64,000 bases of DNA from Escherichia coli (lineage in GTDB: Bacteria > Pseudomonadota > Gammaproteobacteria > Enterobacterales > Enterobacteriaceae): assembly GCA_029351405.1 (NCBI GenBank), contig GCA_029351405.1_4841.1; one strand, 5' to 3'. The notes under the pieces are model-generated. The model saw only the letters and a list, made by a program, of their open reading frames with translations. It ran no database searches and had not been told where the DNA came from. Below are positions 2,261-20,127 of this stretch, in pieces. The position numbers and the translations under genes are program-made. Position 1 is the stretch's first letter. Every line of letters begins with the position of its first letter.

Positions 2261-2353
2261 CTAGATTTCTCCGTTGGGTTAATGTTTACTTTCATGTTCA
2301 CTACAAGAGGACTACAGCTTACCTAACAAAACATATTGAATAAAGCGAAATTA

Positions 2354-2602: not shown

Positions 2603-2877
2603 GATTTGACCTCCGATTTGGAGATTAACGATTCCATCTCCTGACGACCAATGACAGTCTCAACTTTGTCTTCTTCAACCATCATTTCATTCAGAAGATC
2701 GTACCCCAGGACTTGTACACCAAAAGACTTTTTGTTCAGTTCTGCCTCAATATTGAGAACTCGCTGAACCGTCAGGCCACCGGAAGAGGACGGTACTGGA
2801 TAGAAGGCGGAACGCACTTGAACACACCCATTTACGCTGTAACGAACCAGCAAGACATCACACCATACACCAGCCAT
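2599..2877 (-). CDS. hypothetical protein
   Basis: 92-aa ORF, ATG with GGAGGTG RBS, tightly packed between neighbours. Confidence 0.45.
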   Translation of the reverse strand: MAGVWCDVLLVRYSVNGCVQVRSAFYPVPSSSGGLTVQRVLNIEAELNKKSFGVQVLGYDLLNEMMVEEDKVETVIGRQEMESLISKSEVKS

Positions 2878-2878
2878 G

Positions 2879-3541
2879 TTACACCTCCACCGCGTGAGAC
2901 TTCAGGAGTTCATCAATCTCTTTCTGTCCCATGTATGAGAACGGGGTGCGCTGGTAGAACGCCCAGAGTACTAACTGGACAACAGCACGGGAACGGGTTT
3001 CGGCCGTCATCACCAGGCCACTGAAATGAGGAGACTCAGCTGTCCATTGTATCTCTTCGCCCAGGTCTTGATTACAGGTCACCGAGATGCGGAACTTGTT
3101 GCACAGATTGTCGACTTCTTTGTACGCATCGGTAGACACACGAAGTTGTTCCGCATGTGCCCACGGAGTTGTGACGATTCTTTCACCCATCACTTTATCA
3201 GAGATAAACCAATCAATACATTCGGTAAACTCACTAAAATGGTCGATACGATAAATGCAGTCTCCCCCTTCCATAGAACGCATGGCATGATAGCGAGCGT
3301 CGATTTCGTTGTTGTGCATCGCGTTGAAGTCGATGAACACGCGACGCGCCAGCACAACATCTTCTGGTTGAAGTGCCAGGAAATCGTTCAGGCGGCTATA
3401 ATGGAGGACATTGGAACCGTCGTGGCCACGTGTGCAATATGCGTAATGGCTACCGATACGGGCGTGGGCAATATAAGACAACGGGGCGAAGAATAATCCG
3501 TCAGGATCAGGACCGACGATAATAGAATAAAGTTTTTCCAT
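2879..3541 (-). CDS. hypothetical protein (220 aa)
   Basis: ORF 2879-3640 trimmed to internal ATG at 3541 (MEKLYS...); shares the CTATATC-ATG-GAAAAA initiation motif. Confidence 0.5.
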   Translation of the reverse strand: MEKLYSIIVGPDPDGLFFAPLSYIAHARIGSHYAYCTRGHDGSNVLHYSRLNDFLALQPEDVVLARRVFIDFNAMHNNEIDARYHAMRSMEGGDCIYRIDHFSEFTECIDWFISDKVMGERIVTTPWAHAEQLRVSTDAYKEVDNLCNKFRISVTCNQDLGEEIQWTAESPHFSGLVMTAETRSRAVVQLVLWAFYQRTPFSYMGQKEIDELLKSHAVEV

Positions 3542-7837: not shown

Positions 7838-7852
7838 CCCTAAAAGTAAAAA

Positions 7853-7872
7853 TCCCCAACGTTTGTTGGGGA
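7853..7872 (-). terminator. intrinsic terminator after the ACP-like gene
   Basis: TCCCCAAC-GTTT-GTTGGGGA followed on the minus strand by TTTTT. Confidence 0.55.
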
Positions 7873-7878
7873 CTTCTG

Positions 7879-8202
7879 TTATTTGCGCAGGGCAACTACG
7901 AGTTCAGCGAGTTCACCCATGGTCGGGTCATCACCTTTACTGCCCAGCCAACCATCGTCGATTTCGACCTGAAACTCTTCTTCGAGGTCCATTACAATTT
8001 CGATAGCGTCCAGTTCATCACCGCCGAGGTCTTTCTTGGTACGGAGGCCAGCCAGCTTGTCCAGGGCGTCCTCGTTCTGAGATGCCACGTCGTCCAGCAA
8101 TTTGCGCTTGTCATCGTCACGCCACAGATCCAAGTTCAGATTGTCAGTGGCGTACTGAGCCAGATGACGCATGACTTCAACATATGTTGGTTTGCTGCTC
8201 AT
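7879..8202 (-). CDS. acyl carrier protein-like protein (conserved Ser replaced by Glu)
   Basis: 107 aa; KDLGGDELDAIEIVMDLEEEFQVEIDD aligns with the ACP helix II region ([28 protein letters not shown]) but reads DEL instead of DSL; GGGAGA RBS. Confidence 0.7.
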   Translation of the reverse strand: MSSKPTYVEVMRHLAQYATDNLNLDLWRDDDKRKLLDDVASQNEDALDKLAGLRTKKDLGGDELDAIEIVMDLEEEFQVEIDDGWLGSKGDDPTMGELAELVVALRK

Positions 8203-8221
8203 GCTACTTCTCCCAAAGAAT

Positions 8222-8237
8222 GGCGGGTTGCCCCGCC
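8222..8237 (-). terminator. hairpin GGCGGG-TTGC-CCCGCC
   Basis: Between the vWA gene end and the ACP-like gene start. Confidence 0.35.
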
Positions 8238-8244
8238 CGTTGGA

Positions 8245-10446
8245 TTAGATTTTGATTTCTTTCTCTGTCAGTTCGGCAGTGACCTTGTACTTCACCCCAT
8301 CCACTTCAACTTCCATGGTGGACTCTTCCAGGTCGAGGTCGGTGAACCAGCCATGACCAGCAACGATACCATACACCACTTTAGACAGCGTCTTGTTCAG
8401 GGCGCGGACTTCGGTGATGGCCGCCTTGGTAGCAGCGTCGATCCAGTTTTCGATCAGCTGTTTCTGTAGGGCTTCAGGCACGGCAGTGATCATAGGAGAC
8501 TTCACAAATGCTTCGTACTCTTTCAGAGCATTGGCGATGAACAAGTCACCAGCATTGAGTTTCTTGTTCTCGGCGATCTTCTTCTGTACTGCCGCGATGC
8601 TCGGTAGTGAAGATGCCCCGGCGATCTTAACGTTCAGCTCACGGCTCATGTAGACGTCCGTGGAGTCCTTCAGTTCGGTCTTCGGTGAGAAGCCGTAATC
8701 GCGGATGCCGTAGGAGGACAGGAACTCGGCCGCCTCAGCGCCGTACTGTACTGCCAGGCCTTTGGCGTTACCCTTACCAACCAGGGCGTCTCGATAGAAC
8801 TTCAGTACCTTCTGCTTGCCTTTCAGGGCTTCCAGGCGGACATTATCCGCAAAGAACTGAGCAGCACTGATGTTCTTGACCATGGCGCGGTTGACCAGCG
8901 GTACGCTTTCCAGGTTCAGGATGAACACTTCCGGACCACCAAACACGTGGACGCCCATTTCGATCAGCTTCTGTACAACTTCGATATCAGCCTTGAACGG
9001 CAGAGTCTTCACGTTAATGATACCGTCTTTGACGATGGTGTAGTTGCGCCACTGGAAAGTATCCAGTTCTTCAGGCAGGCCAAACTTCTTCTGTGCGAAT
9101 TCAGGCACAGCCACAGTACCGTGTTGAATTGTACGCACACTGATGTTCGGGCGCTCGGAGTTATAGACCAAATCGCTGATTGGCACAACACCCAGGTCGT
9201 TGGTAGGTTCGAACGTCGGGTTCCACTCTTCGTGTTCTGCCAGCTTGAGAGCCAGGGCTTTACGCTCTTCTTTGGACTGAGCATTCGCGATCTGTTCTGC
9301 CAGCTTGTCTTCGGTGTCGTCGGTTTTCTGCACAGTACCGCGCCCGATACTCTTATAGGAGAACATCGGATGCTTGGTAGCAACAGGCACACCAGCTTCA
9401 GCCAGGTACGTCAGCACATCAACGACGGTTGTCGCATCTTCAGCCGGAACCATGTCATAGTCAATACCGTCAACGCCGCGCAGCTGGTCATCAACAATCG
9501 CCTGAACCAGATCGTTCTTGATGTTGGAGTAGTCCTGCTTGGTGAAGCAGTTGCTGTACTGTTTGATGAAGCGAACGTCGCCCGTCTTCTTCAGCGCAGC
9601 CCAAACCAGATCTGCGTCCATAGTGTGTACGCCGTAGAACGCCAGCACGTATGCCGCCTGGATGTCCGTCAGGCTATCCATCTGGTCGATCATGTTAGGG
9701 TTTACAACCCACAGCTTGGTGACGCTCTCAGGGATGCTCACATAGCCGACCGGGTGAGAGTCATCGTCCTGTACCGCCAGCACTGTTGCCACACCGTTTT
9801 CGACGTAGATTGCATGGGTGTAGATGACTGGGACATCAACTTTCACCTTCGGCACTGATGACTTCAGCACGTTTTCCAGTTCGTTCTGGTATTCGGTCTG
9901 ACCTTCGGCAAACACGTGAGTAGCACCGGAGCGTTCGGCCATCTGCGCCAGCAGTTCGCGGTTACAGTACCAGCCGTATTCGATAAATGTAATGTTATCG
10001 AAAGCAAATGGCAGGGTCTCAGCAACCAGTAAGATTTCGTTGGTACGCCAGCAGTTGTCATAACCATCGGTCATGAATGCCAGGTTGTTGACGTAGCCAG
10101 GTTTCTTCAGGTCACGCGCAGTATCCATCGCCAGTTTCAATGGCTCAACGAAACCAGTACAGCCGGATGGTTGCAGGAAACGGTCGATCAGTTTGTTCAG
10201 CTCGCTCAGGTCAGATGCGACACCGATCTGACGCCCGGCAAATACCGTTCCGAAATCACCGCGAGATGAAAAGTAAAGGATGCTCACAGTATCTTCGGGT
10301 TTCACCAGGGAAGGTAGGTTCTCCTTCAGATGCTTACGGACTTCTGGAAGTGAACGATACATGGAACCGGAGATATCCACAACGATTACATGGTTAGACG
10401 GCGCGACGGTCGCAACCGCATTCTTAAATGTTAATGATTCAATCAT
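8245..10446 (-). CDS. von Willebrand factor type A (vWA) domain protein
   Basis: ORF 8245-10584 trimmed to ATG 10446 (MIESLTF...); N-terminal MIDAS motif VVDISGSM ... MTDGYD; about 500-aa uncharacterised C-terminal region. Confidence 0.7.
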   Translation of the reverse strand: MIESLTFKNAVATVAPSNHVIVVDISGSMYRSLPEVRKHLKENLPSLVKPEDTVSILYFSSRGDFGTVFAGRQIGVASDLSELNKLIDRFLQPSGCTGFVEPLKLAMDTARDLKKPGYVNNLAFMTDGYDNCWRTNEILLVAETLPFAFDNITFIEYGWYCNRELLAQMAERSGATHVFAEGQTEYQNELENVLKSSVPKVKVDVPVIYTHAIYVENGVATVLAVQDDDSHPVGYVSIPESVTKLWVVNPNMIDQMDSLTDIQAAYVLAFYGVHTMDADLVWAALKKTGDVRFIKQYSNCFTKQDYSNIKNDLVQAIVDDQLRGVDGIDYDMVPAEDATTVVDVLTYLAEAGVPVATKHPMFSYKSIGRGTVQKTDDTEDKLAEQIANAQSKEERKALALKLAEHEEWNPTFEPTNDLGVVPISDLVYNSERPNISVRTIQHGTVAVPEFAQKKFGLPEELDTFQWRNYTIVKDGIINVKTLPFKADIEVVQKLIEMGVHVFGGPEVFILNLESVPLVNRAMVKNISAAQFFADNVRLEALKGKQKVLKFYRDALVGKGNAKGLAVQYGAEAAEFLSSYGIRDYGFSPKTELKDSTDVYMSRELNVKIAGASSLPSIAAVQKKIAENKKLNAGDLFIANALKEYEAFVKSPMITAVPEALQKQLIENWIDAATKAAITEVRALNKTLSKVVYGIVAGHGWFTDLDLEESTMEVEVDGVKYKVTAELTEKEIKI

Positions 10447-10615
10447 CGTTTTGACCTTTTTGGGCTTTGGAGTGTTTGGAGTTCGCGTCGGCGTTCTCCA
10501 GCATAGTTTCAATGAAATCCCGGTTGTTTTCCATTTGGGCGACCAGAACATCACTGGGGCGGAATGATTTGTCAAGACAATCAAGTCCGGCGCGTTTTAA
10601 TTTGTTGTCGGTCAT
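10439..10615 (-). CDS. small hypothetical protein
   Basis: 58 codons from ATG 10615 (listed ORF begins at a TTG); weak RBS. Confidence 0.25.
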   Translation of the reverse strand: MTDNKLKRAGLDCLDKSFRPSDVLVAQMENNRDFIETMLENADANSKHSKAQKGQNDD

Positions 10616-10660
10616 CAGGCTCTCGTGAGTTATATTTCCCAACTATTTCAACATGGAACT

Positions 10661-10691
10661 ATTATATTACGACAGGCGGTATTGATGTCAA
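10661..10691 (-). promoter_or_regulatory. sigma70-like promoter (TTGACA-17 nt-TAATAT)
   Basis: Minus-strand TTGACATCAATACCGCCTGTCGTAATATAAT in the AT-rich spacer upstream of the vWA operon. Confidence 0.4.
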
Positions 10692-10765
10692 TTAATATAA
10701 TAAAAATACCCGATTGAATATAACCGGGCATTATATTATTGACAGGTTGAAATATTATTCAGAGC

Positions 10766-11638
10766 TTATTTAAAGGAGTCTACAATGGATTTGAAAATAT
10801 AATCTTTGGAGCGCTGTTGTACCGGGAGTTCTCCATACGGAACCATGCAAGGGTGTTGTTTGGTCTGAGGGTCTTTGACTGGGCCATACACCCAACCCTC
10901 AGACTCCTTCTCCGCCATCCATCTCTCATGCGATTCGCTGGGCTTACGATCACCAGTGAGGTGGAAGATAACACCTTTGCAAGCGCTCTCACGTTGCCAG
11001 GCCGGAGATTGTTCCCAAGGCAGTTGAGAGTCGTCACCAACAGACTTACAGTATGCGCGGTTGGCTTCATGACAAATCTTGGCGATGCGCAGAACCAATG
11101 GCGAATAAGTGAGATCGAGTTTGGAGTTGGCGCGCAGGAAATCACTAACAGTCTTACGAGATTTGGCGTTATGAGATTCAACAACAAGTTCCATGTCATC
11201 CGGCCCACAAACGAAAGACGCCAAGAAGCGCTCACCATTTTCCGCTCTGAACGTCACGTCCTGAATCATCACATTGAAGCCGAGGTGATAGGCCGGATAG
11301 AGGGCGCTACGTTCAACAGCGTATTGATCGATCCGGATCTCTGCCGTTTCCGTGGCTTTGGCCAACAGATCTTGTTCAACAAGCGCCCGGTACGTCTCGA
11401 GCTGCCACAGCTGGTCGAAGGTATTATTGTAGGAAATCTCTTTGCCCAGGGCTTCATCGAAGTTGGCAGGGTCTATGGATGTGCTGGGCTTGGTGCCGTG
11501 AACGACGAAGCCGTTATCCATCTTGAAATGACAAGTGATAGCCCGGTGACCGCCGACTTCGCGGTCTTCGTAAATCACCTCAGCGATATGTGACTTCAGG
11601 ACTTCAGGAGTGAGTTTTATGCCAGTACGAGTTGTCAT
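10766..11638 (-). CDS. hypothetical two-domain protein (C-terminal RyR-like region suspected)
   Basis: 290 aa; the C-terminal stretch HERWMAEKESEGWVYGPVKDPQTKQHPCMVPYGELP resembles phage RyR-domain proteins; not verifiable without HMM search. Confidence 0.5.
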   Translation of the reverse strand: MTTRTGIKLTPEVLKSHIAEVIYEDREVGGHRAITCHFKMDNGFVVHGTKPSTSIDPANFDEALGKEISYNNTFDQLWQLETYRALVEQDLLAKATETAEIRIDQYAVERSALYPAYHLGFNVMIQDVTFRAENGERFLASFVCGPDDMELVVESHNAKSRKTVSDFLRANSKLDLTYSPLVLRIAKICHEANRAYCKSVGDDSQLPWEQSPAWQRESACKGVIFHLTGDRKPSESHERWMAEKESEGWVYGPVKDPQTKQHPCMVPYGELPVQQRSKDYIFKSIVDSFK

Positions 11639-11646
11639 GTGTTATC

Positions 11647-12021
11647 CTATGATAGTTGTTTACAGACCTCCACTACTTTACGACACATATCGATATTGAA
11701 CAACCCAATATGACAATCGCGCTTCTTGATCCCCAGCTTATGCGCCAGCCAACTGTAAGCGTCGCTCCTGCTCAACTCTCCGCTTTTCCACAGTGGGTCA
11801 AACGATCTATGGGCTTCCTGCTTAGCAGCACGGAGAGCGGCATTCGCCATCCTTCCCAAAGGTTGTCTGCCGTCGCCATGGGCATGGCAACCGACACGGG
11901 CATCACATGGGGTACATACCCAGAACTTCAGATTGCGGAGGTCAGGACGATGAGGGTAGAGAACATCACCACCGACGAATTCGGCTGGGAGGCCACAGTA
12001 ATCACATATAACAGGTTCCAT
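11647..12021 (-). CDS. zinc-ribbon protein
   Basis: ORF trimmed to ATG 12021; CDYCG ... CTPCD cysteine pairs. Confidence 0.45.
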   Translation of the reverse strand: MEPVICDYCGLPAEFVGGDVLYPHRPDLRNLKFWVCTPCDARVGCHAHGDGRQPLGRMANAALRAAKQEAHRSFDPLWKSGELSRSDAYSWLAHKLGIKKRDCHIGLFNIDMCRKVVEVCKQLS

Positions 12022-12040
12022 ATTCTTTGTCCAAAAGAAA

Positions 12041-12057
12041 CCCCGCACATGGCGGGG
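12041..12057 (-). terminator. hairpin CCCCGC-ACATG-GCGGGG plus T-tract
   Basis: Downstream of the 123-aa gene. Confidence 0.45.
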
Positions 12058-12081
12058 TTGCTCAGGCCGAGGCCAACAGGG

Positions 12082-12453
12082 TTATTTCAGCAGCGCTTCC
12101 AGTTCTTCAATAGATTTGCCTTCCAGCTCCTGCTGTTTCTTACGCTGGATCAGCTCCAGGATAACCTGGTTGTTCGCCTTACGCTCTGCCGCGTCTTTGA
12201 TGTCGTCGCGTTCTTTCAGCTTAACACCGATGATGTGCTTGACAACGTCGAAGCGCAGCTGCAATTCGGAATCAACGTTGCTTTTGGTGCCAATGAAATC
12301 TTCTTCATCGGTTTCTGCTGCTTTCACCTGACGGCTCAGACCTTTCGCCATTTCGTTCAGGGCGGTCAGGCTCAGATCCCAAACCTGCTCAACAGACAGC
12401 AGACCTTTGTTAGACTCGAAGCGCAGTTTCAGACGGGTTACTTTATCAAACAT
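12082..12453 (-). CDS. hypothetical coiled-coil protein
   Basis: 123 aa, charged heptad-like C-terminus; GAGGA RBS. Confidence 0.5.
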   Translation of the reverse strand: MFDKVTRLKLRFESNKGLLSVEQVWDLSLTALNEMAKGLSRQVKAAETDEEDFIGTKSNVDSELQLRFDVVKHIIGVKLKERDDIKDAAERKANNQVILELIQRKKQQELEGKSIEELEALLK

Positions 12454-12497: not shown

Positions 12498-14516
12498 TTA
12501 GAACACAACTTTCACAGTGCGGTTGAACGAGCCGCTCACCTTCACGAACACGTGGTTGCGTTGGGTGGTAGAGAAGCCCAGACCGGACAGCTGCTCAGTG
12601 CTTGGCTGTACTTTAATCTTACCACCTAACATTTCAAAAACCTTGCGGTGTTTATCAAGTTCCGGCTTCAGATATTCGTTATAGAAGCCACGGGTGCCGA
12701 CAGGGTTAGCACAACCTTCCAGGATGAAGAACACGTGCTTGTTGCCAGTCTGCTCACCGTCCCAATGGTTTGGTGAGTTCAGAACCAGCTGTACCTTCTG
12801 GAAGACCGAGGTCTTGATGCCCCAGATTTCCTGAGAGCGAGCGTCGTCCTTCAGGGTAGAACGGATGTCTACCACCTGACCAGCGCGGACATCAATCACA
12901 ACAGCCAGAGTGCGATCTTTGTGCTTCAGACCAGGATGCGAAAAACGCTTGGTCTGGCCTTTGTATTCAACTTCGATTTCGAAGCCCATATCACAGGTTT
13001 CACGCTGGCTGAAGTTAGTGACATAGAACTCGTACAGACCATCACGCAGCTTGCGTTCATCGCTGAAGAAGATGTTCTCCACCGGGCGGCGGTTGGGATC
13101 AATGCCGTCCATACCGTTCATGTCGATATCCAGGGTTGCGCCAGTTGCCGAACGACGGTTGTGATAATACACGTGGTTGTGAAGAGGATCGTTCAGGCTC
13201 AGATCCAGGTCGTCGTTGTTATGCCAAGCCAGTGACACGCGGAGGAAGCTGTCGACATTGCCGCCTGCGGTCTTCACGCGCTCTTTGATAGAGTCGGCCA
13301 CTTCGCCATTGTACGACCAGCTGAAGCCGTTGTTCCACTTGAACAGGTTAGGAGCGCCTGCGGTAGCCGGAGCGATCAGGGACATCAGGTTGCCAATGTG
13401 AGAGTTTTCGACCAGCACTTCCAGGGAATGCGCCTTTGGCAACACGTTGGTCAGGAAGTCGTCGATCGTGATCTCTTCAACCTTGTCCAGGGACTTGGTC
13501 GGAGTCTTCACTTCAGACGCCAGCTGAGCAAACGGGTCCATCTTCTTCTGAGCTGCCAGATCGGCGAACAGAACGTTGTTGATGGTCAGATCGTCATACA
13601 CGGCATAACGGCGACCCAGTGAATCAGTCAGACCCAGCGCTTCGACTTCTTTCTGCGCGTTTTCAATCATAGACTTCGTGACCAGCGCGGTTGGGCGCTT
13701 GTAGTTCGTCGGAGCGACTTTGGTTTCAAAGGACTTCACGGCGGTTTCCAGATCCCGGCCTTCATTGAGGTCTACCAGCAGAGAGCCAATCACGGTATTA
13801 CGAATGCCGTGAGGGGTATGACCGTTTGCACGGTAGCCAGTGCGCCAAGCCCACAGAGCGCGTTTCTCTTCTGCAGTTTGTTCGTACAGGGTCTTGTTCA
13901 CCACAAACGCCTGCACTGCCGCTTTGTGCTCTTCACCGCGATACAGAGAATTCTGGTCGATCAATTCCAGAACGATTTCAGCCGATTCCAGAGACAGTTC
14001 ACGCAGGCCGCGCTCAAACACTTCAATCGCCTGGCGGATTTCACCCTTCTTAGAAGCGATGGCATCTGCCCGCAGAACATAGCTGCCCAGCAGGTCGGTG
14101 TGGAAGTGGTTGTAGGTGCGGACAATACCGTCTTTCATTTCGTGATTCGACCCAACACCAACTTTCTTGGTGTCGTTGAAGTACACGTCGACGATTGCGT
14201 GCTGCTTAACATACGCTGACAGCGCCGCAGCGACAACGTCATATTCGTTACCCAGCTGAATGTTATCCCAGATAGAGATCACGTTCAGGTCGGAGTCGAT
14301 GGTGACCACACCGCCGATGTTACGGATGAATTGTTTACAGCAGGTGCAGTCGTGCTCGGTACGCTCACGGTAGAGCGGGTTGGTACCAGCAGGGAAAGAA
14401 GACAGATACAGATCCCACAGAGCATCTTTATCGATGTTGGTCATGAACAGACCAGTTGCTGACATGGCCAGCACGTTATTGTTGACAGCTACTGCGAAGG
14501 GCTTAAAATCTGACAT
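12498..14516 (-). CDS. large hypothetical protein (672 aa)
   Basis: Uninterrupted ORF, ATG with AGGAAG RBS; no Walker or GHKL motifs seen. Confidence 0.6.
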   Translation of the reverse strand: MSDFKPFAVAVNNNVLAMSATGLFMTNIDKDALWDLYLSSFPAGTNPLYRERTEHDCTCCKQFIRNIGGVVTIDSDLNVISIWDNIQLGNEYDVVAAALSAYVKQHAIVDVYFNDTKKVGVGSNHEMKDGIVRTYNHFHTDLLGSYVLRADAIASKKGEIRQAIEVFERGLRELSLESAEIVLELIDQNSLYRGEEHKAAVQAFVVNKTLYEQTAEEKRALWAWRTGYRANGHTPHGIRNTVIGSLLVDLNEGRDLETAVKSFETKVAPTNYKRPTALVTKSMIENAQKEVEALGLTDSLGRRYAVYDDLTINNVLFADLAAQKKMDPFAQLASEVKTPTKSLDKVEEITIDDFLTNVLPKAHSLEVLVENSHIGNLMSLIAPATAGAPNLFKWNNGFSWSYNGEVADSIKERVKTAGGNVDSFLRVSLAWHNNDDLDLSLNDPLHNHVYYHNRRSATGATLDIDMNGMDGIDPNRRPVENIFFSDERKLRDGLYEFYVTNFSQRETCDMGFEIEVEYKGQTKRFSHPGLKHKDRTLAVVIDVRAGQVVDIRSTLKDDARSQEIWGIKTSVFQKVQLVLNSPNHWDGEQTGNKHVFFILEGCANPVGTRGFYNEYLKPELDKHRKVFEMLGGKIKVQPSTEQLSGLGFSTTQRNHVFVKVSGSFNRTVKVVF

Positions 14517-14630
14517 GATGTAATCTTCCTGTTTCAGTTCAAATGTGCGCCCCGTTTGCCAGGGCGCTTCGTTTAAGTGAGGTCAATATACGCTGGATTG
14601 AGTTATTGAAGAACGAAGTAAAGGGAATCT

Positions 14631-15854
14631 TTATTCAGGTTTCTTCAAACGGTCCAGCAAATTGACGGAACCACGTTTGAGCACGACTTCATCACAGCGC
14701 TTTTTGTATTCCCCACCGCCGTCATAGCTGACCTTGCCCCGAGGTTTTTCACCGCGCCCAACCGCCTCAACACAGCGGGTGTACTTGCTCAGTTCACAGA
14801 ACATGTTCTCCAGCTGCATAACGTTCATGCACTGATCTACAGGCTCTTCAGCCGACCAGAATTGCTCACGAACATACCCATATTGGGAATACACCGCGTC
14901 CTGATTGTCCCGCAACCAGAAGATGCATTCTTCATGCGTCATGCCATCTTTGTCCTGGAACATCAGATCAATCCCTGCGCGACAGCCTGGTCCAGCAACC
15001 GTGAAGTGGTTCTCACTGAAAGGATATCCAGGAATGTACGTGAAATCAACCCAGATCTGATAGGCCAGGAATGGACCAAGCCCTTCGATGTCGTCATACA
15101 TGCGCTGGTATACTTCCAGAGGAGTACCAAGGCGCAGCAAGTCATGGAAATAGTTTGGATACTTGTTGACGAATGCCTTCAGAGAACGGATAACACGCAT
15201 CGGCATGTATGGTTCCCATCCCTCGATGGTATATTCACCAGGATTCTCTTCGACCAGCTTTTTGGCGACCTTGTAGTCCATCTCGTCCACAATACCCTGG
15301 CCAACGCGATACACTTTCACCATCATCCCACCGAAGCGCTGCTCCTTGTGGTTGACAACCAGCTCAGGGAAAGCCAGGCATTGCTTCAGGCCGCCCGTGT
15401 TGAAGGCATTGGTGAATACCTTACCGCCGTCGGCCTCGAACTTCTGAAGTCGTTCGCGGGTTGCATCAAGGTTGATCTTGGCGAATTCTTTGATCGTCAT
15501 CGCGCCGCCGATAGCCTGGATTGGATCCCAGAGGTTGAACATGCGGAACAACACGCAGTTGAACATCTTGTCGGCCATACCCAGAGCATCGTTGTTGACG
15601 ATGTTGTTGATCAGGTTGAGAGACTGCCTGTCGTGCTCTCTCCGGACATTACAGAACTTGACCTGCCGTAATATGGGATTATCAGTCCAAGGAGCAGGAA
15701 GGCGCTGGACATCCTTCTTGACGTGGATCTGATAACGATCGCGCATCCATTCGTAAGACAGGCGGGTATGGGTCGGACTGAGAACCGGTTTGGCCGACTT
15801 TATCTTTTCTTCACGGACACCGCAGTACGGGACGTCTAGGGCTTTATCTTTCAT
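14631..15854 (-). CDS. hypothetical protein (407 aa)
   Basis: ATG with AGAGGA RBS; no recognisable catalytic motif by eye. Confidence 0.6.
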   Translation of the reverse strand: MKDKALDVPYCGVREEKIKSAKPVLSPTHTRLSYEWMRDRYQIHVKKDVQRLPAPWTDNPILRQVKFCNVRREHDRQSLNLINNIVNNDALGMADKMFNCVLFRMFNLWDPIQAIGGAMTIKEFAKINLDATRERLQKFEADGGKVFTNAFNTGGLKQCLAFPELVVNHKEQRFGGMMVKVYRVGQGIVDEMDYKVAKKLVEENPGEYTIEGWEPYMPMRVIRSLKAFVNKYPNYFHDLLRLGTPLEVYQRMYDDIEGLGPFLAYQIWVDFTYIPGYPFSENHFTVAGPGCRAGIDLMFQDKDGMTHEECIFWLRDNQDAVYSQYGYVREQFWSAEEPVDQCMNVMQLENMFCELSKYTRCVEAVGRGEKPRGKVSYDGGGEYKKRCDEVVLKRGSVNLLDRLKKPE

Positions 15855-15922
15855 GGTATCCTCTTAGAATACGAAAACAGAGGCCATTATAGCCTCTGTT
15901 GTTTAGTGAATAACTGTATATC

Positions 15923-16795
15923 TTAATCGATACGGGTCAGTTGGGTGATAGATGATTGCACTGGGCTGGCCACATAGATACGGACGTTGGCTTTCCATTC
16001 ACCCCAGATCAACGGTAGAGTTGGAAAGTTGTCTTCATTGAAAACAAACACGGGAATGTAGCTCTCGACTGTTTCGCCAGAGAACGCCTGGAAGCCCATC
16101 TTGGTGTATCCCACGATCTCGTCAATAAAATCGAACGGCGCGTAGGCAACACCAGCATGTTCGTTGCATCCGAGTCGACCTGGGGTAGCCGTGCCCGTCA
16201 GAATGATTTCGGTGATCTGGCGCTTAGGCTCGGTGGTCAACATATCAGAGAAGTCAGGCTCTTTGAAGGTTGCCATGTTCTTCAGGAACTTGCCAGCCGG
16301 GTATTCTTTGCCGTCGACGGTGATGGTGTTCACCACTTTGATACACGCCTGAGGGAATTCCCCTTCGATGCGCAGACTTTCGCGTGGGAAGCCTTTGTTG
16401 TAGTAGTAATCCAGTGCTGGCACAACTTCACCTTCATTACGGATGAACTTGCTCATGTTAGAGGCATACACGCGTTGTAGGCATTCGTCACCGTCGAAAC
16501 CAGCAATATGAGCCACACCGTCGTTGACTGTTGTGATGTCGCCCTGAGCATCCATGATCTGGCGCATAATGCCTTTGATGTCGACAACAACGGGTTCTTT
16601 CAGGACTCGCGGAGATGCAGTGAACTCAATTTTCACCTCATGGTCGAAATACGCCGCTTCCAGCAGTTCACGGGTTTCTTCCAGCACCAGTTTCGCCTGA
16701 TTGCGGATCTTGTCAAAATTGGGCGACGTGACATCGCCCTTTGCATTACCGAAAGCCAGATTCAGATTCACGTTCTTAGAAAATGTAGTTGTCAT
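15923..16795 (-). CDS. hypothetical protein (290 aa)
   Basis: ATG with GGAG RBS; sits where T4 has gene 43, downstream of regA. Confidence 0.55.
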   Translation of the reverse strand: MTTTFSKNVNLNLAFGNAKGDVTSPNFDKIRNQAKLVLEETRELLEAAYFDHEVKIEFTASPRVLKEPVVVDIKGIMRQIMDAQGDITTVNDGVAHIAGFDGDECLQRVYASNMSKFIRNEGEVVPALDYYYNKGFPRESLRIEGEFPQACIKVVNTITVDGKEYPAGKFLKNMATFKEPDFSDMLTTEPKRQITEIILTGTATPGRLGCNEHAGVAYAPFDFIDEIVGYTKMGFQAFSGETVESYIPVFVFNEDNFPTLPLIWGEWKANVRIYVASPVQSSITQLTRID

Positions 16796-16811: not shown

Positions 16812-17276
16812 TTATTCGCTTTTGGCCTTTGTAGGCCGGATAATGTATTTTGGGACCAGCTTCCATTCAGGAACCTGATCGTGTTTAACCACTTTAATGC
16901 GTGACATATCAGCGGCTTCGGTGACCTGCTCAGGATGAATGACCTTCACCATGTTCCACTGCTCCAGCAGCTTGATGATTCGGTTCATCCTCAGGACATC
17001 TTCGCGGTTAAATCCGTTGTAATGCCCGTCCAGCATAAATAGATGCTTAAAGTGGACGATATAATACTTACCACACTTATGAAGAATATGGCAAGTCTGA
17101 TACAGAGTATTCGGCTCTTGGCGCGTGTTTACCCCAATTCGACTCAGTGTTTCCTTGATCCCCAGGAATATACCTGGCCGATCTTGGTTCAATTGAACTT
17201 CAACCATACAATCAACGATGCTGGCCTCATCGTTGACTGCTGAAATATTCAATATGTCTAGCGTATTACGCGCCAT
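16812..17276 (-). CDS. regA: RegA-like translational repressor
   Basis: 154 aa; LYQTCHILHKCGKYYIVHFKHLFMLDG and WKLVPKYIIRP match the conserved T4 RegA core; position after the clamp-loader genes matches T4 order. Confidence 0.8.
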   Translation of the reverse strand: MARNTLDILNISAVNDEASIVDCMVEVQLNQDRPGIFLGIKETLSRIGVNTRQEPNTLYQTCHILHKCGKYYIVHFKHLFMLDGHYNGFNREDVLRMNRIIKLLEQWNMVKVIHPEQVTEAADMSRIKVVKHDQVPEWKLVPKYIIRPTKAKSE

Positions 17277-17304
17277 GACTCATTCCCCTTTACAATAGTT
17301 TGAA

Positions 17305-17727
17305 CTACTTAGCCTTGCGCGGTTTCGCTTTGGCGTTCAGCTCAGTGCGTCTCATCTTCTCGCGTATCTCGGCCAGGACTTCCTTCGGCAAGAAACGGAC
17401 GTACTCCGATGCCTTCTCCATGCTGATGTAGAAGTACTCTGAGAGTAACTTCACGTCAGGATCAATCGGACCTTTCTTAGACCATTTGTCGTAGCGTTTC
17501 CGAGCCGGAATGGTGTAAAAGGCATATGACCATTGCATCCATGGAGTGATAGCATGTAGCTTATTCATCTGTTGCGCAGCCACTAGAGTGTCTTTGCTCT
17601 GAGCTAAACCACGCCGCGTCATAAACGGGTCGAATCCTTTCAACACTTCTGGGTCATCAGACCGCAAAAGGTTTTCTTTGCTGCTGTTCAGAGCAGCCAG
17701 GTAATCGAACAATCCAAGGGCGGCCAT
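17305..17727 (-). CDS. clamp loader small subunit (gp62-like), assigned by synteny
   Basis: ORF trimmed to ATG 17727, 5 nt after the gp44-like stop; lies between gp44-like and regA as in T4. Confidence 0.5.
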   Translation of the reverse strand: MAALGLFDYLAALNSSKENLLRSDDPEVLKGFDPFMTRRGLAQSKDTLVAAQQMNKLHAITPWMQWSYAFYTIPARKRYDKWSKKGPIDPDVKLLSEYFYISMEKASEYVRFLPKEVLAEIREKMRRTELNAKAKPRKAK

Positions 17728-17731
17728 AATA

Positions 17732-18721
17732 TCACTTCCACTTGATGTTGAGCATGACATTGGTCAGGAAAAACACAGCATGCAACCAGACATCGCCGAC
17801 TTGGCGGTGTTCAATCTGAGACTGACCACATACGCACACCAGATCAGGGATAGACTCATTCTGAACCAACATTTGCTTCTCTTTATCCTGTGGCACACAG
17901 AACTGGAAGAAGCGGGAATAGAAGTCTTCAGTGATATAGTTCTGGTTGTCGGTCACCCACTGCTTCATCCCAGCCCAGTCATTATCCTTCAACATATTCA
18001 CCAACATGCCCATATCGGCCGATTTTAACACAGCCAGTGCACGTTCGTCGATCTTGCCGTAAGTGGTGACGTTATCCTGTAGAACACCCATGATGCGGCG
18101 GTTATCAGGGAAATGGCGCTTGACAATAGCAGCCAACACAGGAGGGTCATACTCAACACCTTCGCTGCGAAGGATTTCAGCACAGCGGCGCATGAACTGA
18201 AGTTTGACCTCATCAGCCTCAGTCTCATTCCAGATAAAGTCGATTTCACGGCAACGAGAGCGCAGAGGTTCGTTCACACGTTGCTTGGCGTTGGTGGTCA
18301 GGATGAATGAACAGTTCTTGGAGACCTTCTCCACAATACCCTTCAGCGACTCCTGCGCCGCCATAGACAGACGCTCTACTTCGTCGAGGATAACGACTTT
18401 GCGACCACCGAATACACTCACACCAGTAGAGTACTGAATCACGCGGTCACGGATAACGTCGATACTGTTGTCCAGGGATGCGTTGATCATCAGTGGTTGC
18501 TTACAACCGATCTCGTTACACACAGCCAGGGCGGAGGTAGTCTTGCCAGTACCAGGCTGAGGGGAGTAGAACAGCATAGACGGGATGTTACCGTTGCCGC
18601 TGGTGATGTAGCCATGGATTTTAGCGCGGACGTCTTGAGGGATGATAATCTCGTCCAGGTTGTCAGGGCGGAAACGGTTCTCCCAGGCGTACTGGTCTTT
18701 TACAATCGTGATATTAGACAT
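17732..18721 (-). CDS. clamp loader large subunit (gp44-like AAA+ ATPase)
   Basis: 329 aa; Walker A PQPGTGKTT, Walker B VVILDEV, SRC motif (SRCREIDF) of RFC-type clamp loaders. Confidence 0.85.
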   Translation of the reverse strand: MSNITIVKDQYAWENRFRPDNLDEIIIPQDVRAKIHGYITSGNGNIPSMLFYSPQPGTGKTTSALAVCNEIGCKQPLMINASLDNSIDVIRDRVIQYSTGVSVFGGRKVVILDEVERLSMAAQESLKGIVEKVSKNCSFILTTNAKQRVNEPLRSRCREIDFIWNETEADEVKLQFMRRCAEILRSEGVEYDPPVLAAIVKRHFPDNRRIMGVLQDNVTTYGKIDERALAVLKSADMGMLVNMLKDNDWAGMKQWVTDNQNYITEDFYSRFFQFCVPQDKEKQMLVQNESIPDLVCVCGQSQIEHRQVGDVWLHAVFFLTNVMLNIKWK

Positions 18722-19377
18722 TATGTATTTCCATGATATAGTTTACAGAACAGAACCCAAGCGTCGTCATCATACGGGTTCCAGCCCTCTTTGAATTTGT
18801 TTAACATACTCGTTGCGGTGTTCTCTTTAATAGAGAACAAACGGGCAATTCTATGGCACCCATCACCAGTAGAAACCCAGTGATCATACACTACCCCAGC
18901 CTTTAACCACATCGGTCTGGTGTTGTGTAGCAGCGCAGCCCCGGTGTCCCAGGGTTTTATTCCTGCGGCGGGGTGGCTTTTACCAGTTCTTCCGTGCATG
19001 GGATGAAGATTCCCAGACTTGCCCTTCAACCAACTCGAGACACCAACTCGGTGATGTTTAGGTCCCGCTGACCTACCGTTGGCGATACCACAACCCCGTG
19101 GCTGAAATGATTTGTTTAAACATTTTGGGTGATCAATGTTCTCACTAATCAACTGCTGCTCTCTCCAATATGCTTCTTCTGGGGAGTCAAACAGTTCTAC
19201 GAATTCTACATCAAAGAAATCAGAACCTTTCTTAGATATGATTTCCTTGACTGTTTGTGAAGAAGTGAAATATGAAGTGAACAATTGTAAAGGATGTGCA
19301 CCCAATTTCGTTCTAGAACCAAAATAGAAAGAACCATCCTTCCCTAACAAATGATATACAAACGGTTGGTTCCTCAT
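18721..19377 (-). CDS. GIY-YIG-like homing endonuclease gene inserted between the clamp and clamp-loader genes
   Basis: ORF trimmed to ATG 19377 with GAGG RBS; N-terminus FVYHLLGKDGSFYFGS resembles the GIY...YIG motif. Confidence 0.45.
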   Translation of the reverse strand: MRNQPFVYHLLGKDGSFYFGSRTKLGAHPLQLFTSYFTSSQTVKEIISKKGSDFFDVEFVELFDSPEEAYWREQQLISENIDHPKCLNKSFQPRGCGIANGRSAGPKHHRVGVSSWLKGKSGNLHPMHGRTGKSHPAAGIKPWDTGAALLHNTRPMWLKAGVVYDHWVSTGDGCHRIARLFSIKENTATSMLNKFKEGWNPYDDDAWVLFCKLYHGNT

Positions 19378-19409
19378 TTCAGCCTCGTGTAGAAGAATCA
19401 TTTCAAATA

Positions 19410-19428
19410 GGCGGGGAACTCCCCCGCC
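19410..19428 (-). terminator. hairpin GGCGGGG-AACT-CCCCGCC plus TATTTGAAA
   Basis: Between the sliding clamp gene and the endonuclease gene. Confidence 0.45.
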
Positions 19429-19458
19429 CACACATTATAGCATCAGGCTGGAGATTGA

Positions 19459-20127
19459 TTACTCAATCTGTGCGCCGACGAAGTAATTGATCGTCGCGTC
19501 GGATGATTGGAAGTTCACCATCTGTAGATCAGCACATGCACGCAGAGTGTAGTTGCCTTCGATCATTTTCAGGTTGGCAACATCCAGCGGCATTACGAAG
19601 TCCGGCAGCGCGGTTTCGCCCAGCTCAACAGTGTAATTGTTGGAGTTGTCCAGGGTAGTGGTGGTTGCAACCAGGCGTGTTTTGCCACCCTGAGCAACCA
19701 GACGCACAGTCTTATGTCCTAGGGTAGAGCAGGCGCGGGTCAGTTCTTTCATCTTCTCTGGAGTGATGATCGCTTCAAAATCGACAGACGGCAGTTCAAT
19801 GGTGTCAGCCGGAACAACAGTGAGTTCTTTAGCAGAACGCCAGAATTGCAGCTGAGAGCTTTCGCCTTTCAACAGGATGTAGTCCTGATGGAATTCGGCT
19901 TTGGCACCTTTGAAGGAAGGTAGGCGCTGGATGGCCAGAAGTTTGGTCAGGTCCAGAATCGGGAACTCAAACGGGAAGTCTTCTTCGATCTGCGCCACGG
20001 CGATCACAGTAGAAGAATCATTAATACTGCGCAGCATCTTGCCCGGTGTCAGAACGATAGATGGGTTGATGGTCTCAAAGTTGGCCAGCAACTGAAGTGT
20101 ACGTTCAGAGAGAGTGATCTCTTGCAT
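19459..20127 (-). CDS. sliding clamp (gp45-like)
   Basis: 222 aa, the size of T4 gp45; N-terminus LQLLANFETINPSIVL resembles gp45; sits upstream of the clamp-loader genes. Confidence 0.7.
   Translation of the reverse strand: MQEITLSERTLQLLANFETINPSIVLTPGKMLRSINDSSTVIAVAQIEEDFPFEFPILDLTKLLAIQRLPSFKGAKAEFHQDYILLKGESSQLQFWRSAKELTVVPADTIELPSVDFEAIITPEKMKELTRACSTLGHKTVRLVAQGGKTRLVATTTTLDNSNNYTVELGETALPDFVMPLDVANLKMIEGNYTLRACADLQMVNFQSSDATINYFVGAQIE

What the first reader, a model, noticed from the sequence alone, without database searches (positions are those of the whole stretch)
12498..16795. Three large uncharacterised ORFs occupy the slot where T4 has DNA polymerase
Downstream of regA, where T4 carries gene 43, this genome has ORFs of 290, 407 and 672 aa with no recognisable polymerase, Walker or GHKL motifs. 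Given the ViI-like context, these are candidates for DNA hypermodification enzymes (for example aGPT-pyrophosphorylase-like proteins) or other unknown replication-associated functions. I could not assign any of them from sequence alone.
Basis: inference. Interest (0 to 1): 0.5.

Follow-up and report, generated by a model that had tools for sequence, protein, structure and literature searches.

The report
Three unrelated genes downstream of regA
The three genes sitting where phage T4 keeps its DNA polymerase are not one mystery: one is a known nucleotide-cleaning enzyme type, one belongs to the known thymine-hypermodification gene set, and the largest is a very widespread phage protein of unknown function that always travels with a small partner gene.

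Summary
The three ORFs exist exactly as described (minus strand; 290, 407 and 672 aa), downstream of a T4-like gp45/gp44/gp62/regA block in an Agtrevirus-like Ackermannviridae phage. They do not form one functional unit.

- **290-aa ORF:** a MazG-like all-alpha NTP pyrophosphohydrolase. Its catalytic core (residues 1-187) has intact acidic motifs. It also carries a fast-evolving, lineage-specific C-terminal extension.
- **407-aa ORF:** the orthologue (88% identity, same position) of Salmonella phage ViI gp160. That is the clade-1 'aGPT-pyrophosphorylase' (Pfam PF18723), which is also fused to the 5-hmdU DNA kinase in Bacillus phage SP10. Its precise activity is still unknown.
- **672-aa ORF:** a member of DUF8224 (PF26675), a uniform family of about 4,800 protein clusters found in unrelated phages. 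It is not tied to hypermodification.

New here: DUF8224 is almost always followed by a homologue of the 123-aa ORF at 12082-12453. This holds in 62/64 viral loci, 60/67 genome loci and all 18 Ackermannviridae loci, usually among replication, ligase or tRNA genes. The predicted structure shows a TerD-like beta-sandwich and an M2-1/VP30-like helical domain, but no enzyme fold. A public 'RNA polymerase' label for it is unsupported.

The parts
15923..16795 (-). 290-aa MazG-like NTP pyrophosphohydrolase. The catalytic core is residues 1-187 (about 16235-16795). A variable C-terminal extension of about 100 aa covers about 15926-16234.
   Evidence: - Family matches: phrog_2144 'MazG-like pyrophosphatase' E 3e-132, and phrog_671 'nucleotide pyrophosphohydrolase' E 7e-21 over residues 2-193.
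- Invariant residues across divergent homologues: E40 and E43 (EExxE), D82 and D86, T88/T89/N91/D92/G93, S112/N113/K116/F117.
- The C-terminal extension is absent in the Serratia, N4-like and Cygsa01 homologues.
- No Pfam, NCBIfam or PDB sequence hit.
14631..15854 (-). 407-aa clade-1 aGPT-pyrophosphorylase (Pfam HMUDK_hel), orthologue of ViI gp160.
   Evidence: - Pfam PF18723: E 5.2e-82, residues 30-364 covering profile positions 4-278 of 281.
- 88% identical to ViI orf00160/Vi01_130c, in the same position between the MazG-like gene and orf00158.
- SW16-7 CDS145, the equivalent gene counting from CDS139/140, is called aGPT-Pplase1 (PMC10458263).
- Invariant motifs: WT 56-57; N69, R72, D75, R76; GPGC..GID 288-296; E..FCE..KY 349-358.
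12498..14516 (-). 672-aa DUF8224 (PF26675) protein.
- N-terminal alpha/beta plus helical region: residues 1-295, about 13632-14516.
- Linker: residues 327-344.
   Evidence: - phrog_1735, E 0, full length.
- Homologues carry PF26675, which is DUF8224.
- AF2 model: mean pLDDT 81.4.
- Many invariant polar residues along the whole length.
12082..12453 (-). 123-aa partner protein of DUF8224 (phrog_2018). It has a conserved N-terminal motif MF.K..RLKLRF...G..SVE..WDL.LT and a charged, Lys-rich C-terminal part that I read as probably helical.
   Evidence: - 36-49% identical to the gene directly downstream of DUF8224 in distant phage contigs.
- Adjacent to DUF8224 in 62/64 non-Ackermannviridae viral loci and all 18 Ackermannviridae loci, and in 60/67 genome loci.
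- No Pfam family at threshold. The neighbour tables show '-' for it. No PDB hit.
15876..15900 (-). Terminator-like hairpin between the MazG-like gene and the Pplase1 gene.
   Evidence: 11-bp stem followed by a T-rich tail. The Marshall record annotates a terminator at the equivalent position.
14550..14573 (-). GC-rich hairpin (GCGCCC-N-GGGCGC) without a clear U-tract, in the 114-nt spacer upstream of DUF8224.
   Evidence: Read directly from the sequence. It was not called by the terminator scan.
12039..12059 (-). Strong terminator-like hairpin just after the partner gene, closing the DUF8224-partner unit.
   Evidence: 8-bp stem with 6 GC pairs, followed by TCTTTT. The Marshall record annotates a terminator at the equivalent position.
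16812..20127 (-). Upstream context: regA (16812-17276), gp62-like (17305-17760), gp44-like (17732-18721), an inserted homing endonuclease (18721-19431) and the gp45-like sliding clamp (19459-20127).
   Evidence: Pfam Translat_reg, Phage_clamp_A and AAA/Gp44_lid; phrog_314 and phrog_223.

Best explanation
The interval holds three functionally separate units that happen to lie next to each other in Ackermannviridae.

**(1) The 290-aa protein** is a MazG-type all-alpha nucleoside-triphosphate pyrophosphohydrolase that cleaves an (d)NTP to (d)NMP plus PPi at a Glu/Asp-bound metal site. Its most likely role is shaping the dNTP pool during replication. The substrate is unknown; dTTP/dUTP is only one candidate.

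**(2) The 407-aa protein** is the clade-1 aGPT-pyrophosphorylase, the ViI gp160 orthologue. It most likely binds phage DNA containing 5-hydroxymethyl-dU or 5-phosphomethyl-dU and works with the 5-hmdU DNA kinases. It would act either as a second group-transfer enzyme using the invariant Cys353-Glu354 pair, or as a DNA-handling helper of the kinase. The published ViI reconstitution from purified proteins used only a kinase, gp247 and gp226, which I take to mean gp160 is dispensable for 5-NeOmdU in vitro.

**(3) The 672-aa protein** is a DUF8224 protein. Together with the 123-aa protein encoded just downstream, it forms an autonomous two-gene module found in thousands of unrelated phages and in a few bacterial chromosomes. 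It is independent of thymidine hypermodification. From its fold elements, its many invariant Arg/Lys/Asp/Glu/Cys residues and its neighbourhoods, I infer a metal-dependent nucleic-acid-binding or -processing factor expressed with the replication genes. Its biochemical activity remains unknown.

What is shown: family memberships, orthology, gene pairing and distributions. What is inferred: every substrate and activity statement.
For: **Identity of the genome**
- 96.9% DNA identity to Escherichia phage LHE287; Agtrevirus taxonomy.

**MazG-like ORF**
- PHROG matches and conserved acidic motifs.
- The same regA-then-MazG-like order occurs in Pseudomonas phage Cygsa01, with one opposite-strand ORF between them. 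Cygsa01's clamp gene is annotated by similarity to phiW-14 gp45.
- Functional precedent: phage 15599 gp18 is a dTTPase/dUTPase, and phiW-14 infection induces dTTPase activity (PMC13458397).

**Pplase1**
- Pfam E 5e-82; ViI gp160 synteny and 88% identity.
- SP10 gp186 is a fusion of the HMUD1 kinase with HMUDK_hel, and SP10 has no second Pplase (Table 3 of PMC5889632).
- Homologues cluster with the HMUD kinases and a thymidylate-synthase homologue in Vibrio phage D504 and Bacillus phage Nachito.
- Cys353-Glu354 is invariant. This parallels the essential Cys and neighbouring Glu of clade 2 (PMC8989533).
- Purified kinase, gp247 and gp226 reproduce the ViI pathway (PMC8989533).

**DUF8224**
- 4,765 clusters at E<=1e-3, and the 150 best are near-uniform in length; 557 phage records from many lineages.
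- Partner adjacency: 62/64 and 18/18, 60/67.
- 0/64 co-occurrence with Pplase1 or the MazG-like gene.
- Recurring neighbours are an ATP-dependent ligase (16 loci), PolA, DnaB-like and UvrD/Dda-like helicases.
- In Bosa and PA_LZ02 the shorter homologue lies between RNR and a ligase.
- tRNA clusters abut the pair in pf16, Piffle and 7-8 metagenomic loci.
- A stand-alone pair sits among housekeeping genes in Paractinoplanes.
Against: - No activity was measured for any of the three proteins.
- MazG-like ORF: no Pfam MazG, dUTPase_2 or PRA-PH hit even at E<=10, and its fold was not modelled.
- Pplase1: current Pfam calls PF18723 the 'helical domain' of the kinase, which suggests a non-catalytic role. 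I could not detect any sequence relation to clade 2/ADDT (hhalign probability 0.2). gp160 was never shown to be necessary.
- DUF8224: the TerD resemblance is structural only. There was no Pfam TerD hit, and hhalign gave probability 0.1.
- The tRNA and ligase associations have no statistical baseline.
- All 18 Ackermannviridae loci keep MazG-Pplase1-DUF8224 adjacent. A lineage-specific functional link therefore cannot be excluded.
Confidence: 0.7

Rival explanations
1. All three ORFs form one thymidine-hypermodification cluster: MazG clears dTTP, Pplase1 transfers a group, and the 672-aa protein is a further tailoring enzyme.
For: The three genes are adjacent in all 18 Ackermannviridae loci examined. 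The 407-aa ORF really belongs to the pathway's gene set. A dTTPase is part of such pathways elsewhere (PMC13458397).
Against: - DUF8224 never lies near Pplase1 or the MazG-like gene outside Ackermannviridae (0/64 loci).
- Its organism distribution differs from Pplase1's. It is found in 28 Caulobacter and 23 Xanthomonas phage records, genera that do not appear among the leading organisms for Pplase1; conversely Pplase1 is in 62 Vibrio and 33 Microbacterium records.
- The compact hypermodification clusters of Vibrio D504 and Bacillus Nachito contain neither DUF8224 nor this MazG type.
- Terminator-like hairpins separate the genes.
- The MazG core occurs in N4-like, Felix-O1-like and other phage groups.
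Confidence: 0.08
2. The 672-aa protein is a DNA-directed RNA polymerase, as annotated in Shigella phage ChubbyThor and Klebsiella phage BIS47.
For: Product names in two public records. There is a weak structural resemblance of the helical domain to the transcription factors M2-1 and VP30.
Against: - No Pfam, NCBIfam or PDB hit of any polymerase, and its PHROG families carry no function.
- No DFDGD-type or other polymerase motif.
- Nearly all other records call it hypothetical.
Confidence: 0.02
3. The DUF8224-partner pair is a conflict module (anti-defence, or superinfection/defence) and not a replication or repair factor.
For: - It is an autonomous, mobile-looking two-gene cassette.
- It occurs stand-alone among housekeeping genes in Paractinoplanes.
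- It has a TerD-like domain. From my own knowledge, the plasmid ter operon has a phage-inhibition phenotype.
- In ChubbyThor it lies three genes from an NAD-salvage pair.
Against: - No PADLOC match.
- It keeps about 40-50% identity across phages of very different hosts. That is unusual for host-specific counter-defence proteins and points to a universal target.
- Its usual neighbours are replication genes.
Confidence: 0.2
4. The 407-aa protein is only a non-catalytic DNA-binding accessory of the 5-hmdU DNA kinases (as Pfam's current name implies), not a transferase.
For: - The Pfam name is 'HMUDK_hel'.
- The domain is fused to the kinase in SP10.
- Purified kinase, gp247 and gp226 reproduce the ViI pathway without gp160 (PMC8989533).
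Against: - Cys353-Glu354 and several other polar residues are invariant across 26-88% identical homologues.
- SP10 makes alpha-glutamylthymidine yet has no clade-2 enzyme (PMC5889632).
- The SP10 kinase domain alone is active (PMC8989533), so the helical domain is not needed for phosphorylation.
Confidence: 0.35

Closest known systems
Salmonella phage ViI gp160 (Vi01_130c), 'aG/PT-PPlase1'; Pfam PF18723 HMUDK_hel; the C-terminal domain of Bacillus phage SP10 gp186
   Same: - The 407-aa ORF is 88% identical to gp160 and occupies the same position between the MazG-like gene and orf00158.
- It matches the Pfam model over its full length.
- SP10 gp186 residues 313-598 belong to the same family.
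   Different: Here the domain is free-standing, not fused to a kinase as in SP10. No activity has been assigned to any member of the family, so 'same function' cannot be stated.
Clade-2 aGPT-Pplase / ADDT amino-acid:DNA transferases (ViI gp247, M6 gp51, PaMx11 gp46, YuA and 15599 Pplase2; Pfam PF18724)
   Same: Both belong to the same hypermodification gene sets. An adjacent Cys-Glu pair is invariant in clade 1, as reported for the catalytic Cys and Glu of clade 2 (PMC8989533). Iyer et al. predicted both clades to have a helix-hairpin-helix glycosylase-like fold, as cited in PMC8989533.
   Different: The 407-aa ORF has no PF18724 hit, and hhalign against gp247 gives probability 0.2. Whether the Cys-Glu pairs are positionally equivalent was not established. 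No transferase activity has been shown for clade 1.
MazG-like / dimeric dUTPase-type all-alpha NTP pyrophosphohydrolases, including the Acinetobacter phage 15599 gp18 dTTPase/dUTPase
   Same: PHROG family assignment. The EExxE and DxxxD acidic motifs are conserved. The 290-aa ORF aligns to the C-terminal part of phrog_671 (profile positions 536-665 of 678). 15599 gp18 likewise carries its catalytic domain at the C-terminus, but I did not test whether gp18 belongs to phrog_671.
   Different: - No Pfam MazG or dUTPase_2 hit.
- It has an extra, rapidly diverging extension of about 100 aa at the C-terminus.
- ViI-type phages carry a separate dUTPase_2 enzyme next to thyA and the kinase, so the dTTPase role may belong to that protein.
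- Substrate unknown.
TerD family calcium-binding beta-sandwich (PDB 2kxt, 2qz7)
   Different: No sequence-level relationship: no Pfam TerD hit, and hhalign probability 0.1. The canonical GDNxTGxGxGDDE calcium motif seen in the TerD sequence is absent. In DUF8224 this is only one domain of a 672-aa protein.
Pneumovirus M2-1 core / filovirus VP30 C-terminal domain (helical RNA-binding transcription factors)
   Different: Identity is only 7-10%. The match is to an all-helical fold, where convergence is common. No evidence was obtained for RNA binding or zinc binding.

Membership tests
aGPT-Pplase clade 1 / Pfam PF18723 (HMUDK_hel) | Significant full-length match to the family HMM | tested here: met
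   E 5.2e-82, 275.8 bits against a cut-off of 25; profile positions 4-278 of 281.
aGPT-Pplase clade 1 / Pfam PF18723 (HMUDK_hel) | Orthology with the named member ViI gp160 | tested here: met
   88% identity over 407 aa, with identical gene order regA-MazG-gp160-orf00158.
aGPT-Pplase clade 1 / Pfam PF18723 (HMUDK_hel) | Genome also encodes a 5-hmdU DNA kinase and a dUMP hydroxymethylase | not testable with these tools
   None of these genes is in the 64-kb window. They are present in relatives: ViI and Agtrevirus SW16-7 (PMC10458263).
aGPT-Pplase clade 1 / Pfam PF18723 (HMUDK_hel) | Helix-hairpin-helix DNA-glycosylase-like fold | not tested
The only indication is a sequence hint, the invariant GPGC..GID hairpin motif.
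ADDT / aGPT-Pplase clade 2 (PF18724) | Match to the family HMM or to ViI gp247 | tested here: not met
   No PF18724 hit for the 407-aa ORF at E<=0.01, whereas gp247 scores E 3e-58. hhalign probability 0.2.
ADDT / aGPT-Pplase clade 2 (PF18724) | Essential catalytic Cys with a neighbouring Glu | tested here: inconclusive
   An invariant Cys353-Glu354 pair exists in clade 1, but it could not be aligned to the clade-2 residues.
MazG-like all-alpha NTP pyrophosphohydrolase | Profile match to a MazG-type family | tested here: met
   phrog_2144 E 3e-132 and phrog_671 E 7e-21. However, there is no Pfam MazG, dUTPase_2 or PRA-PH hit at E<=10.
MazG-like all-alpha NTP pyrophosphohydrolase | Conserved acidic metal-binding motifs (ExxE ... 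DxxD-type) | tested here: met
   E40, E43, D82 and D86 are invariant in five homologues at 43-60% identity to the window protein.
MazG-like all-alpha NTP pyrophosphohydrolase | Four-helix-bundle fold and (d)NTP to (d)NMP + PPi activity | not tested
DUF8224 (PF26675) | Full-length homology to family members | tested here: met
   Homologues at 45-99% identity carry PF26675. phrog_1735 E 0 over residues 1-672. The model is not in the local Pfam copy.
TerD family | TerD beta-sandwich fold | tested here: met
TerD family | Sequence or profile similarity and the GDNxTGxGxGDDE calcium motif | tested here: not met
   No Pfam hit and hhalign probability 0.1. The motif is absent from the DUF8224 alignment, compared with the TerD sequence.
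DNA polymerase (T4 gp43-like) or RNA polymerase | Polymerase domain profile, catalytic motifs or fold | tested here: not met
Known anti-phage defence systems (PADLOC) | Match to any defence-system protein model | tested here: not met
   0 families for all the proteins tested.

The most novel reading that the evidence does not exclude
DUF8224 and its obligate partner of about 125-130 aa form a previously undescribed, autonomous two-gene system. It is carried by thousands of unrelated virulent phages and by a few bacterial chromosomes, and it performs a metal-dependent nucleic-acid transaction that matches no known enzyme family. Candidate activities are RNA/tRNA or DNA-end handling linked to ligases and tRNA genes, or a transcription-factor-like function.
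Probability: 0.3. Interest if true: 0.7.

Novelty: new member of a known kind. Interest (0 to 1): 0.4.

Why it matters
Ackermannviridae are widely used as biocontrol and therapy phages, and their hypermodified DNA determines which restriction systems they escape.

Placing the 407-aa gene as the gp160 orthologue highlights that clade-1 'pyrophosphorylases' are conserved in every phage of the group, and fused to the kinase in SP10, yet still have no assigned reaction. This is a concrete, testable gap in an otherwise well-worked pathway.

The analysis also removes the 672-aa gene from the hypermodification candidate list. It shows instead that this gene belongs to one of the larger uniform phage protein families without a function (about 4,800 clusters at 50% identity) and that it is genetically locked to a small partner. 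Such a tightly conserved pair, spread across phages of very different bacterial phyla, probably acts on something universal, and it is a sensible target for functional work.

Finally, the 'RNA polymerase' product name circulating in public records should not be propagated.

Tried and rejected
- **Identity of the 407-aa ORF.** I first assumed it was ViI gp67, the 5-hmdU DNA kinase, because of the Pfam name. I rejected this: gp67 is a 220-aa protein next to thyA, and gp243 is a 304-aa kinase elsewhere. The true counterpart is gp160.
- **Sequence searches against PDB.** Searches for all three ORFs and for the DUF8224 and partner profiles gave nothing significant.
- **NCBIfam.** No hits.
- **Local Pfam.** It lacks PF26675 and gave nothing for the 672- and 290-aa ORFs even at E<=10.
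- **TerD homology at sequence level.** hhalign of the DUF8224 alignment against a TerD alignment gave probability 0.1, so I keep only 'TerD-like fold'.
- **Pplase1 versus Pplase2 relationship.** hhalign gave probability 0.2, so it is not demonstrated here.
- **RNA polymerase label.** Rejected.
- **PADLOC defence models.** None matched.
- **BFVD fold search.** Only uncharacterised relatives. The afdb50 library was unavailable.
- **Literature search for DUF8224 / PF26675 / phrog_1735.** No papers.
- **Conserved operon partners of DUF8224 in cellular genomes.** None beyond the small partner; an apparent third cluster was antisense shadow ORFs in high-GC DNA.
- **phiW-14 and the MazG-like protein.** I looked for the protein in phiW-14 itself. 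It was not seen in the sampled rows, so this remains unresolved.
- **tRNA association.** 21/60 loci have a tRNA gene within 8 kb. I kept this only as a lead because I could not compute a baseline.

Full report
**1. Observation.** The window comes from an Agtrevirus-like member of the Ackermannviridae: 96.9% DNA identity to Escherichia phage LHE287 and 93-96% to Ag3, SKML-39 and others, with taxonomy taken from the ChubbyThor record. Upstream on the same strand are regA (Pfam Translat_reg, E 2e-34), a gp62-like and a gp44-like clamp-loader subunit, an inserted homing endonuclease, and the gp45-like sliding clamp. This is the T4 order 45-44-62-regA, after which T4 has gene 43 (established knowledge of the T4 map). 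No DNA polymerase is in the window; in ViI it lies elsewhere (Vi01_190). A regex scan confirms there are no Walker A, polymerase, GHKL or ligase motifs.

**2. The 407-aa ORF.** Pfam gives a full-length hit to PF18723, 'HMUDK_hel' (E 5.2e-82). I first suspected the characterised kinase ViI gp67. That is wrong: gp67 (YP_004327432) is a 220-aa protein beside thyA, and gp243 is a 304-aa kinase elsewhere.

The ViI gene in the equivalent position, between the MazG-like gene and orf00158, is orf00160/Vi01_130c (407 aa), and it is 88% identical to the window ORF. This is 'gp160', listed as aG/PT-PPlase1 by Lee et al. 2018 and one of the five genes whose lysates reconstituted 5-NeOmdU (PMC5889632). The paper on the related Agtrevirus SW16-7 already calls what I take to be the equivalent gene (CDS145, counting from CDS139/140) aGPT-Pplase1 (PMC10458263).

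Further evidence on the family:
- SP10 gp186 is a fusion of the HMUD1 kinase domain (residues 35-193) with an HMUDK_hel domain (313-598). It is therefore the same family, and SP10 has no second Pplase.
- In Vibrio phage D504 the homologue sits in a compact cluster: polymerase, HMUD2 kinase, ADDT, HMUDK_hel, thymidylate-synthase homologue, dNMP kinase, dUTPase_2. In Bacillus phage Nachito the cluster is HMUD1 kinase, HMUDK_hel, thymidylate-synthase homologue.
- Divergent members share invariant WT, N..R..DR, GPGC..GID and E..FCE..KY motifs. The adjacent Cys353-Glu354 pair recalls the essential Cys and Glu of clade-2 enzymes (PMC8989533).
- I could not link the two clades by sequence.
- The published purified-protein reactions used a kinase, gp247 and gp226 to reproduce the ViI pathway (PMC8989533), and I found no activity reported for clade 1 in the papers I could search.

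So the family and pathway membership are secure and already known. The reaction is not.

**3. The 290-aa ORF.** PHROGs assign it to 'MazG-like pyrophosphatase' (E 3e-132), and residues 2-193 match a 'nucleotide pyrophosphohydrolase' family. Pfam, NCBIfam and PDB sequence searches find nothing.

An alignment with homologues at 43-60% identity shows an invariant EExxE (E40, E43), DxxxD (D82, D86), TTxNDG and SN..KF. This fits a MazG-type metal site. The last 100 or so residues are present only in part of the Ackermannviridae and are poorly conserved. That explains why this protein is only 58% identical to ViI's while regA, by comparison, is about 90% identical in Kuttervirus loci.

The catalytic core also occurs in N4-like, Felix-O1-like and other phages. 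It follows regA in Pseudomonas phage Cygsa01, with one opposite-strand ORF between them; Cygsa01's clamp gene is annotated by similarity to phiW-14 gp45. A dTTPase/dUTPase role, as shown for phage 15599 gp18 (PMC13458397), is possible. But ViI-type phages also have a dUTPase_2 enzyme inside the thyA/kinase cluster, so the substrate is open.

**4. The 672-aa ORF.** It matches phrog_1735 (unknown function) end to end. Its homologues carry PF26675, which is DUF8224. The family is large and uniform: 4,765 clusters at 50% identity with E<=1e-3 and 1,223 with E<=1e-30, and the 150 best matches are almost all 650-700 aa and matched over nearly their full length. It occurs in 557 cultured-phage records spanning Ackermannviridae, Klebsiella, Pectobacterium and Erwinia myoviruses of about 145 kb, N4-like phages, Bacillus, Caulobacter, Microcystis and Cellulophaga phages.

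A 20-sequence alignment shows invariant polar residues along the whole length:
- E51, R52, E54, D56, C57, C60, H137
- NYKR (271-274)
- DDLD (435-438)
- LDxDMN (462-467)
- VEN (479-481)
- SPNxW (581-585)
- RGFxNE (609-614)

The AlphaFold model (pLDDT 81.4) has an N-terminal alpha/beta plus helical region, a disordered linker (327-344) and a beta-rich C-terminal half.
- TerD homology is not detectable by profile comparison.
- BFVD returns only uncharacterised relatives.
- The 'DNA-directed RNA polymerase' product name in ChubbyThor and BIS47 is supported by nothing I ran.

**5. The key new point: a conserved gene pair.** The 123-aa ORF just downstream (12082-12453) is homologous (36-49% identity) to the gene that follows DUF8224 in distant phage contigs.
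- Of 64 viral loci outside the Ackermannviridae, 62 carry this partner directly adjacent: 59 downstream and 3 upstream.
- None of those 64 has Pplase1, the MazG-like gene, regA or the clamp loader within 8 kb.
- In bacterial and archaeal assemblies DUF8224 is rare (67 loci among about 185,000 species). 60 of the 67 have the partner immediately downstream, and most of the seven exceptions are short contigs or partial matches.
- In Paractinoplanes pyxinae the pair lies among permease, LacI-regulator and sugar-binding-protein genes, not in a prophage.

Other recurrent neighbours in phages are an ATP-dependent DNA ligase (16 loci), family-A polymerase, and DnaB-like and UvrD/Dda-like helicases. 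Shorter homologues matching only the N-terminal ~400 residues lie between ribonucleotide reductase and a ligase, plus a polynucleotide kinase/phosphatase in Bosa. tRNA genes lie within 8 kb in 21 of 60 loci and abut the pair in 7-8 of them, as also in pf16 and Piffle, but I have no baseline for this. No defence-system model matches. In the window a terminator-like hairpin follows the partner and another separates the MazG-like gene from Pplase1.

**6. Interpretation.** The interval is a juxtaposition, specific to Ackermannviridae, of three separate units:
- a MazG-type NTP pyrophosphohydrolase;
- the clade-1 Pplase of the thymidine hypermodification gene set;
- an autonomous DUF8224-partner module.

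For the last, the most defensible mechanistic statement is a metal-dependent nucleic-acid-binding or -processing factor co-expressed with replication genes. This rests on the fold elements, the many invariant charged and Cys residues, conservation across phages of very different hosts (which suggests a universal target), and the neighbourhoods. It is inference, not demonstration.

**7. Verdict.** It is right, and already published, for the 407-aa gene, plausible but unproven for the 290-aa gene, and not supported for the 672-aa gene. Two of the three genes are ordinary members of known families. The third belongs to a catalogued DUF, for which the obligate partner, the TerD-like and M2-1-like fold elements and the independence from hypermodification are, as far as the searchable literature shows, not described. 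Overall novelty: new member of a known kind. Interest is moderate (0.4), carried by the open function of clade-1 Pplase and by the DUF8224-partner module.

Noticed in passing
window 18721-19431 (-): A 236-aa homing-endonuclease ORF (phrog_314, E 2e-17) is inserted between the gp44-like clamp-loader gene and the gp45-like sliding-clamp gene. ViI and ChubbyThor lack it at this position.
   Followed up: partly
L002 (Salmonella phage Marshall) 6842-7471; also Maynard: Some relatives carry an HNH homing endonuclease between the MazG-like gene and the Pplase1 gene. AV101 and RPN242 also show an interruption of the alignment here, so this replication-gene block is a hotspot for homing-endonuclease insertion.
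   Followed up: no
L005 (ViI NC_015296) 10301-12320: The ViI reference record splits the DUF8224 gene into two CDS (Vi01_128c and Vi01_129c, both labelled orf00158), and tblastn aligns it in two pieces. This is probably a frameshift or sequencing error in the record.
   Followed up: no
window 8245-12048 (-), versus L001 (ChubbyThor) 220-2735: Downstream of the partner gene the window has a DUF3268 zinc-finger protein, a protein combining an N4 gp49/Sf6 gp66 domain with a RyR domain, and a 779-aa vWA-domain protein. ChubbyThor instead has NAMPT-like and PRPP-synthetase genes close by (an NAD-salvage pair), and tblastn places its vWA gene several kb further downstream in related loci. This segment is variable.
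   Followed up: partly
window 15926-16234 (-) (C-terminal ~100 aa of the 290-aa ORF): The C-terminal extension of the MazG-like protein has no family match. It is highly divergent between this phage and ViI and is missing in the Serratia, N4-like and Cygsa01 homologues. It could be a fast-evolving interaction or regulatory domain.
   Followed up: partly
L092 (pf16) 592-3490; L093 (Piffle) 7844-9900; L061, L064, L066, L070, L075: The DUF8224-partner pair often lies directly beside phage tRNA gene clusters. 21 of 60 metagenomic loci have a tRNA gene within 8 kb. No baseline was computed, so the significance is unknown.
   Followed up: partly
L129 (Paractinoplanes pyxinae) 7959-10455, and about a dozen other Actinoplanes/Micromonospora loci: The DUF8224-partner pair occurs on large chromosomal contigs of several Actinoplanes-group species. 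In the one locus examined it sits among transporter and regulator genes, not prophage genes.
   Followed up: partly
window 14550-14573 (-): A GC-rich hairpin (GCGCCC...GGGCGC) without a U-tract lies in the 114-nt spacer upstream of the DUF8224 start codon. It could be a processing or attenuation signal.
   Followed up: no
L088 (Xanthomonas phage Bosa) 4854-6497; L089 (Pseudomonas phage PA_LZ02) 4884-6500: Shorter proteins of about 540 aa match only the N-terminal ~400 residues of DUF8224 and have different C-termini. They lie between ribonucleotide reductase and DNA ligase in Bosavirus and Pamexvirus siphoviruses. I did not test whether these phages have the small partner.
   Followed up: partly
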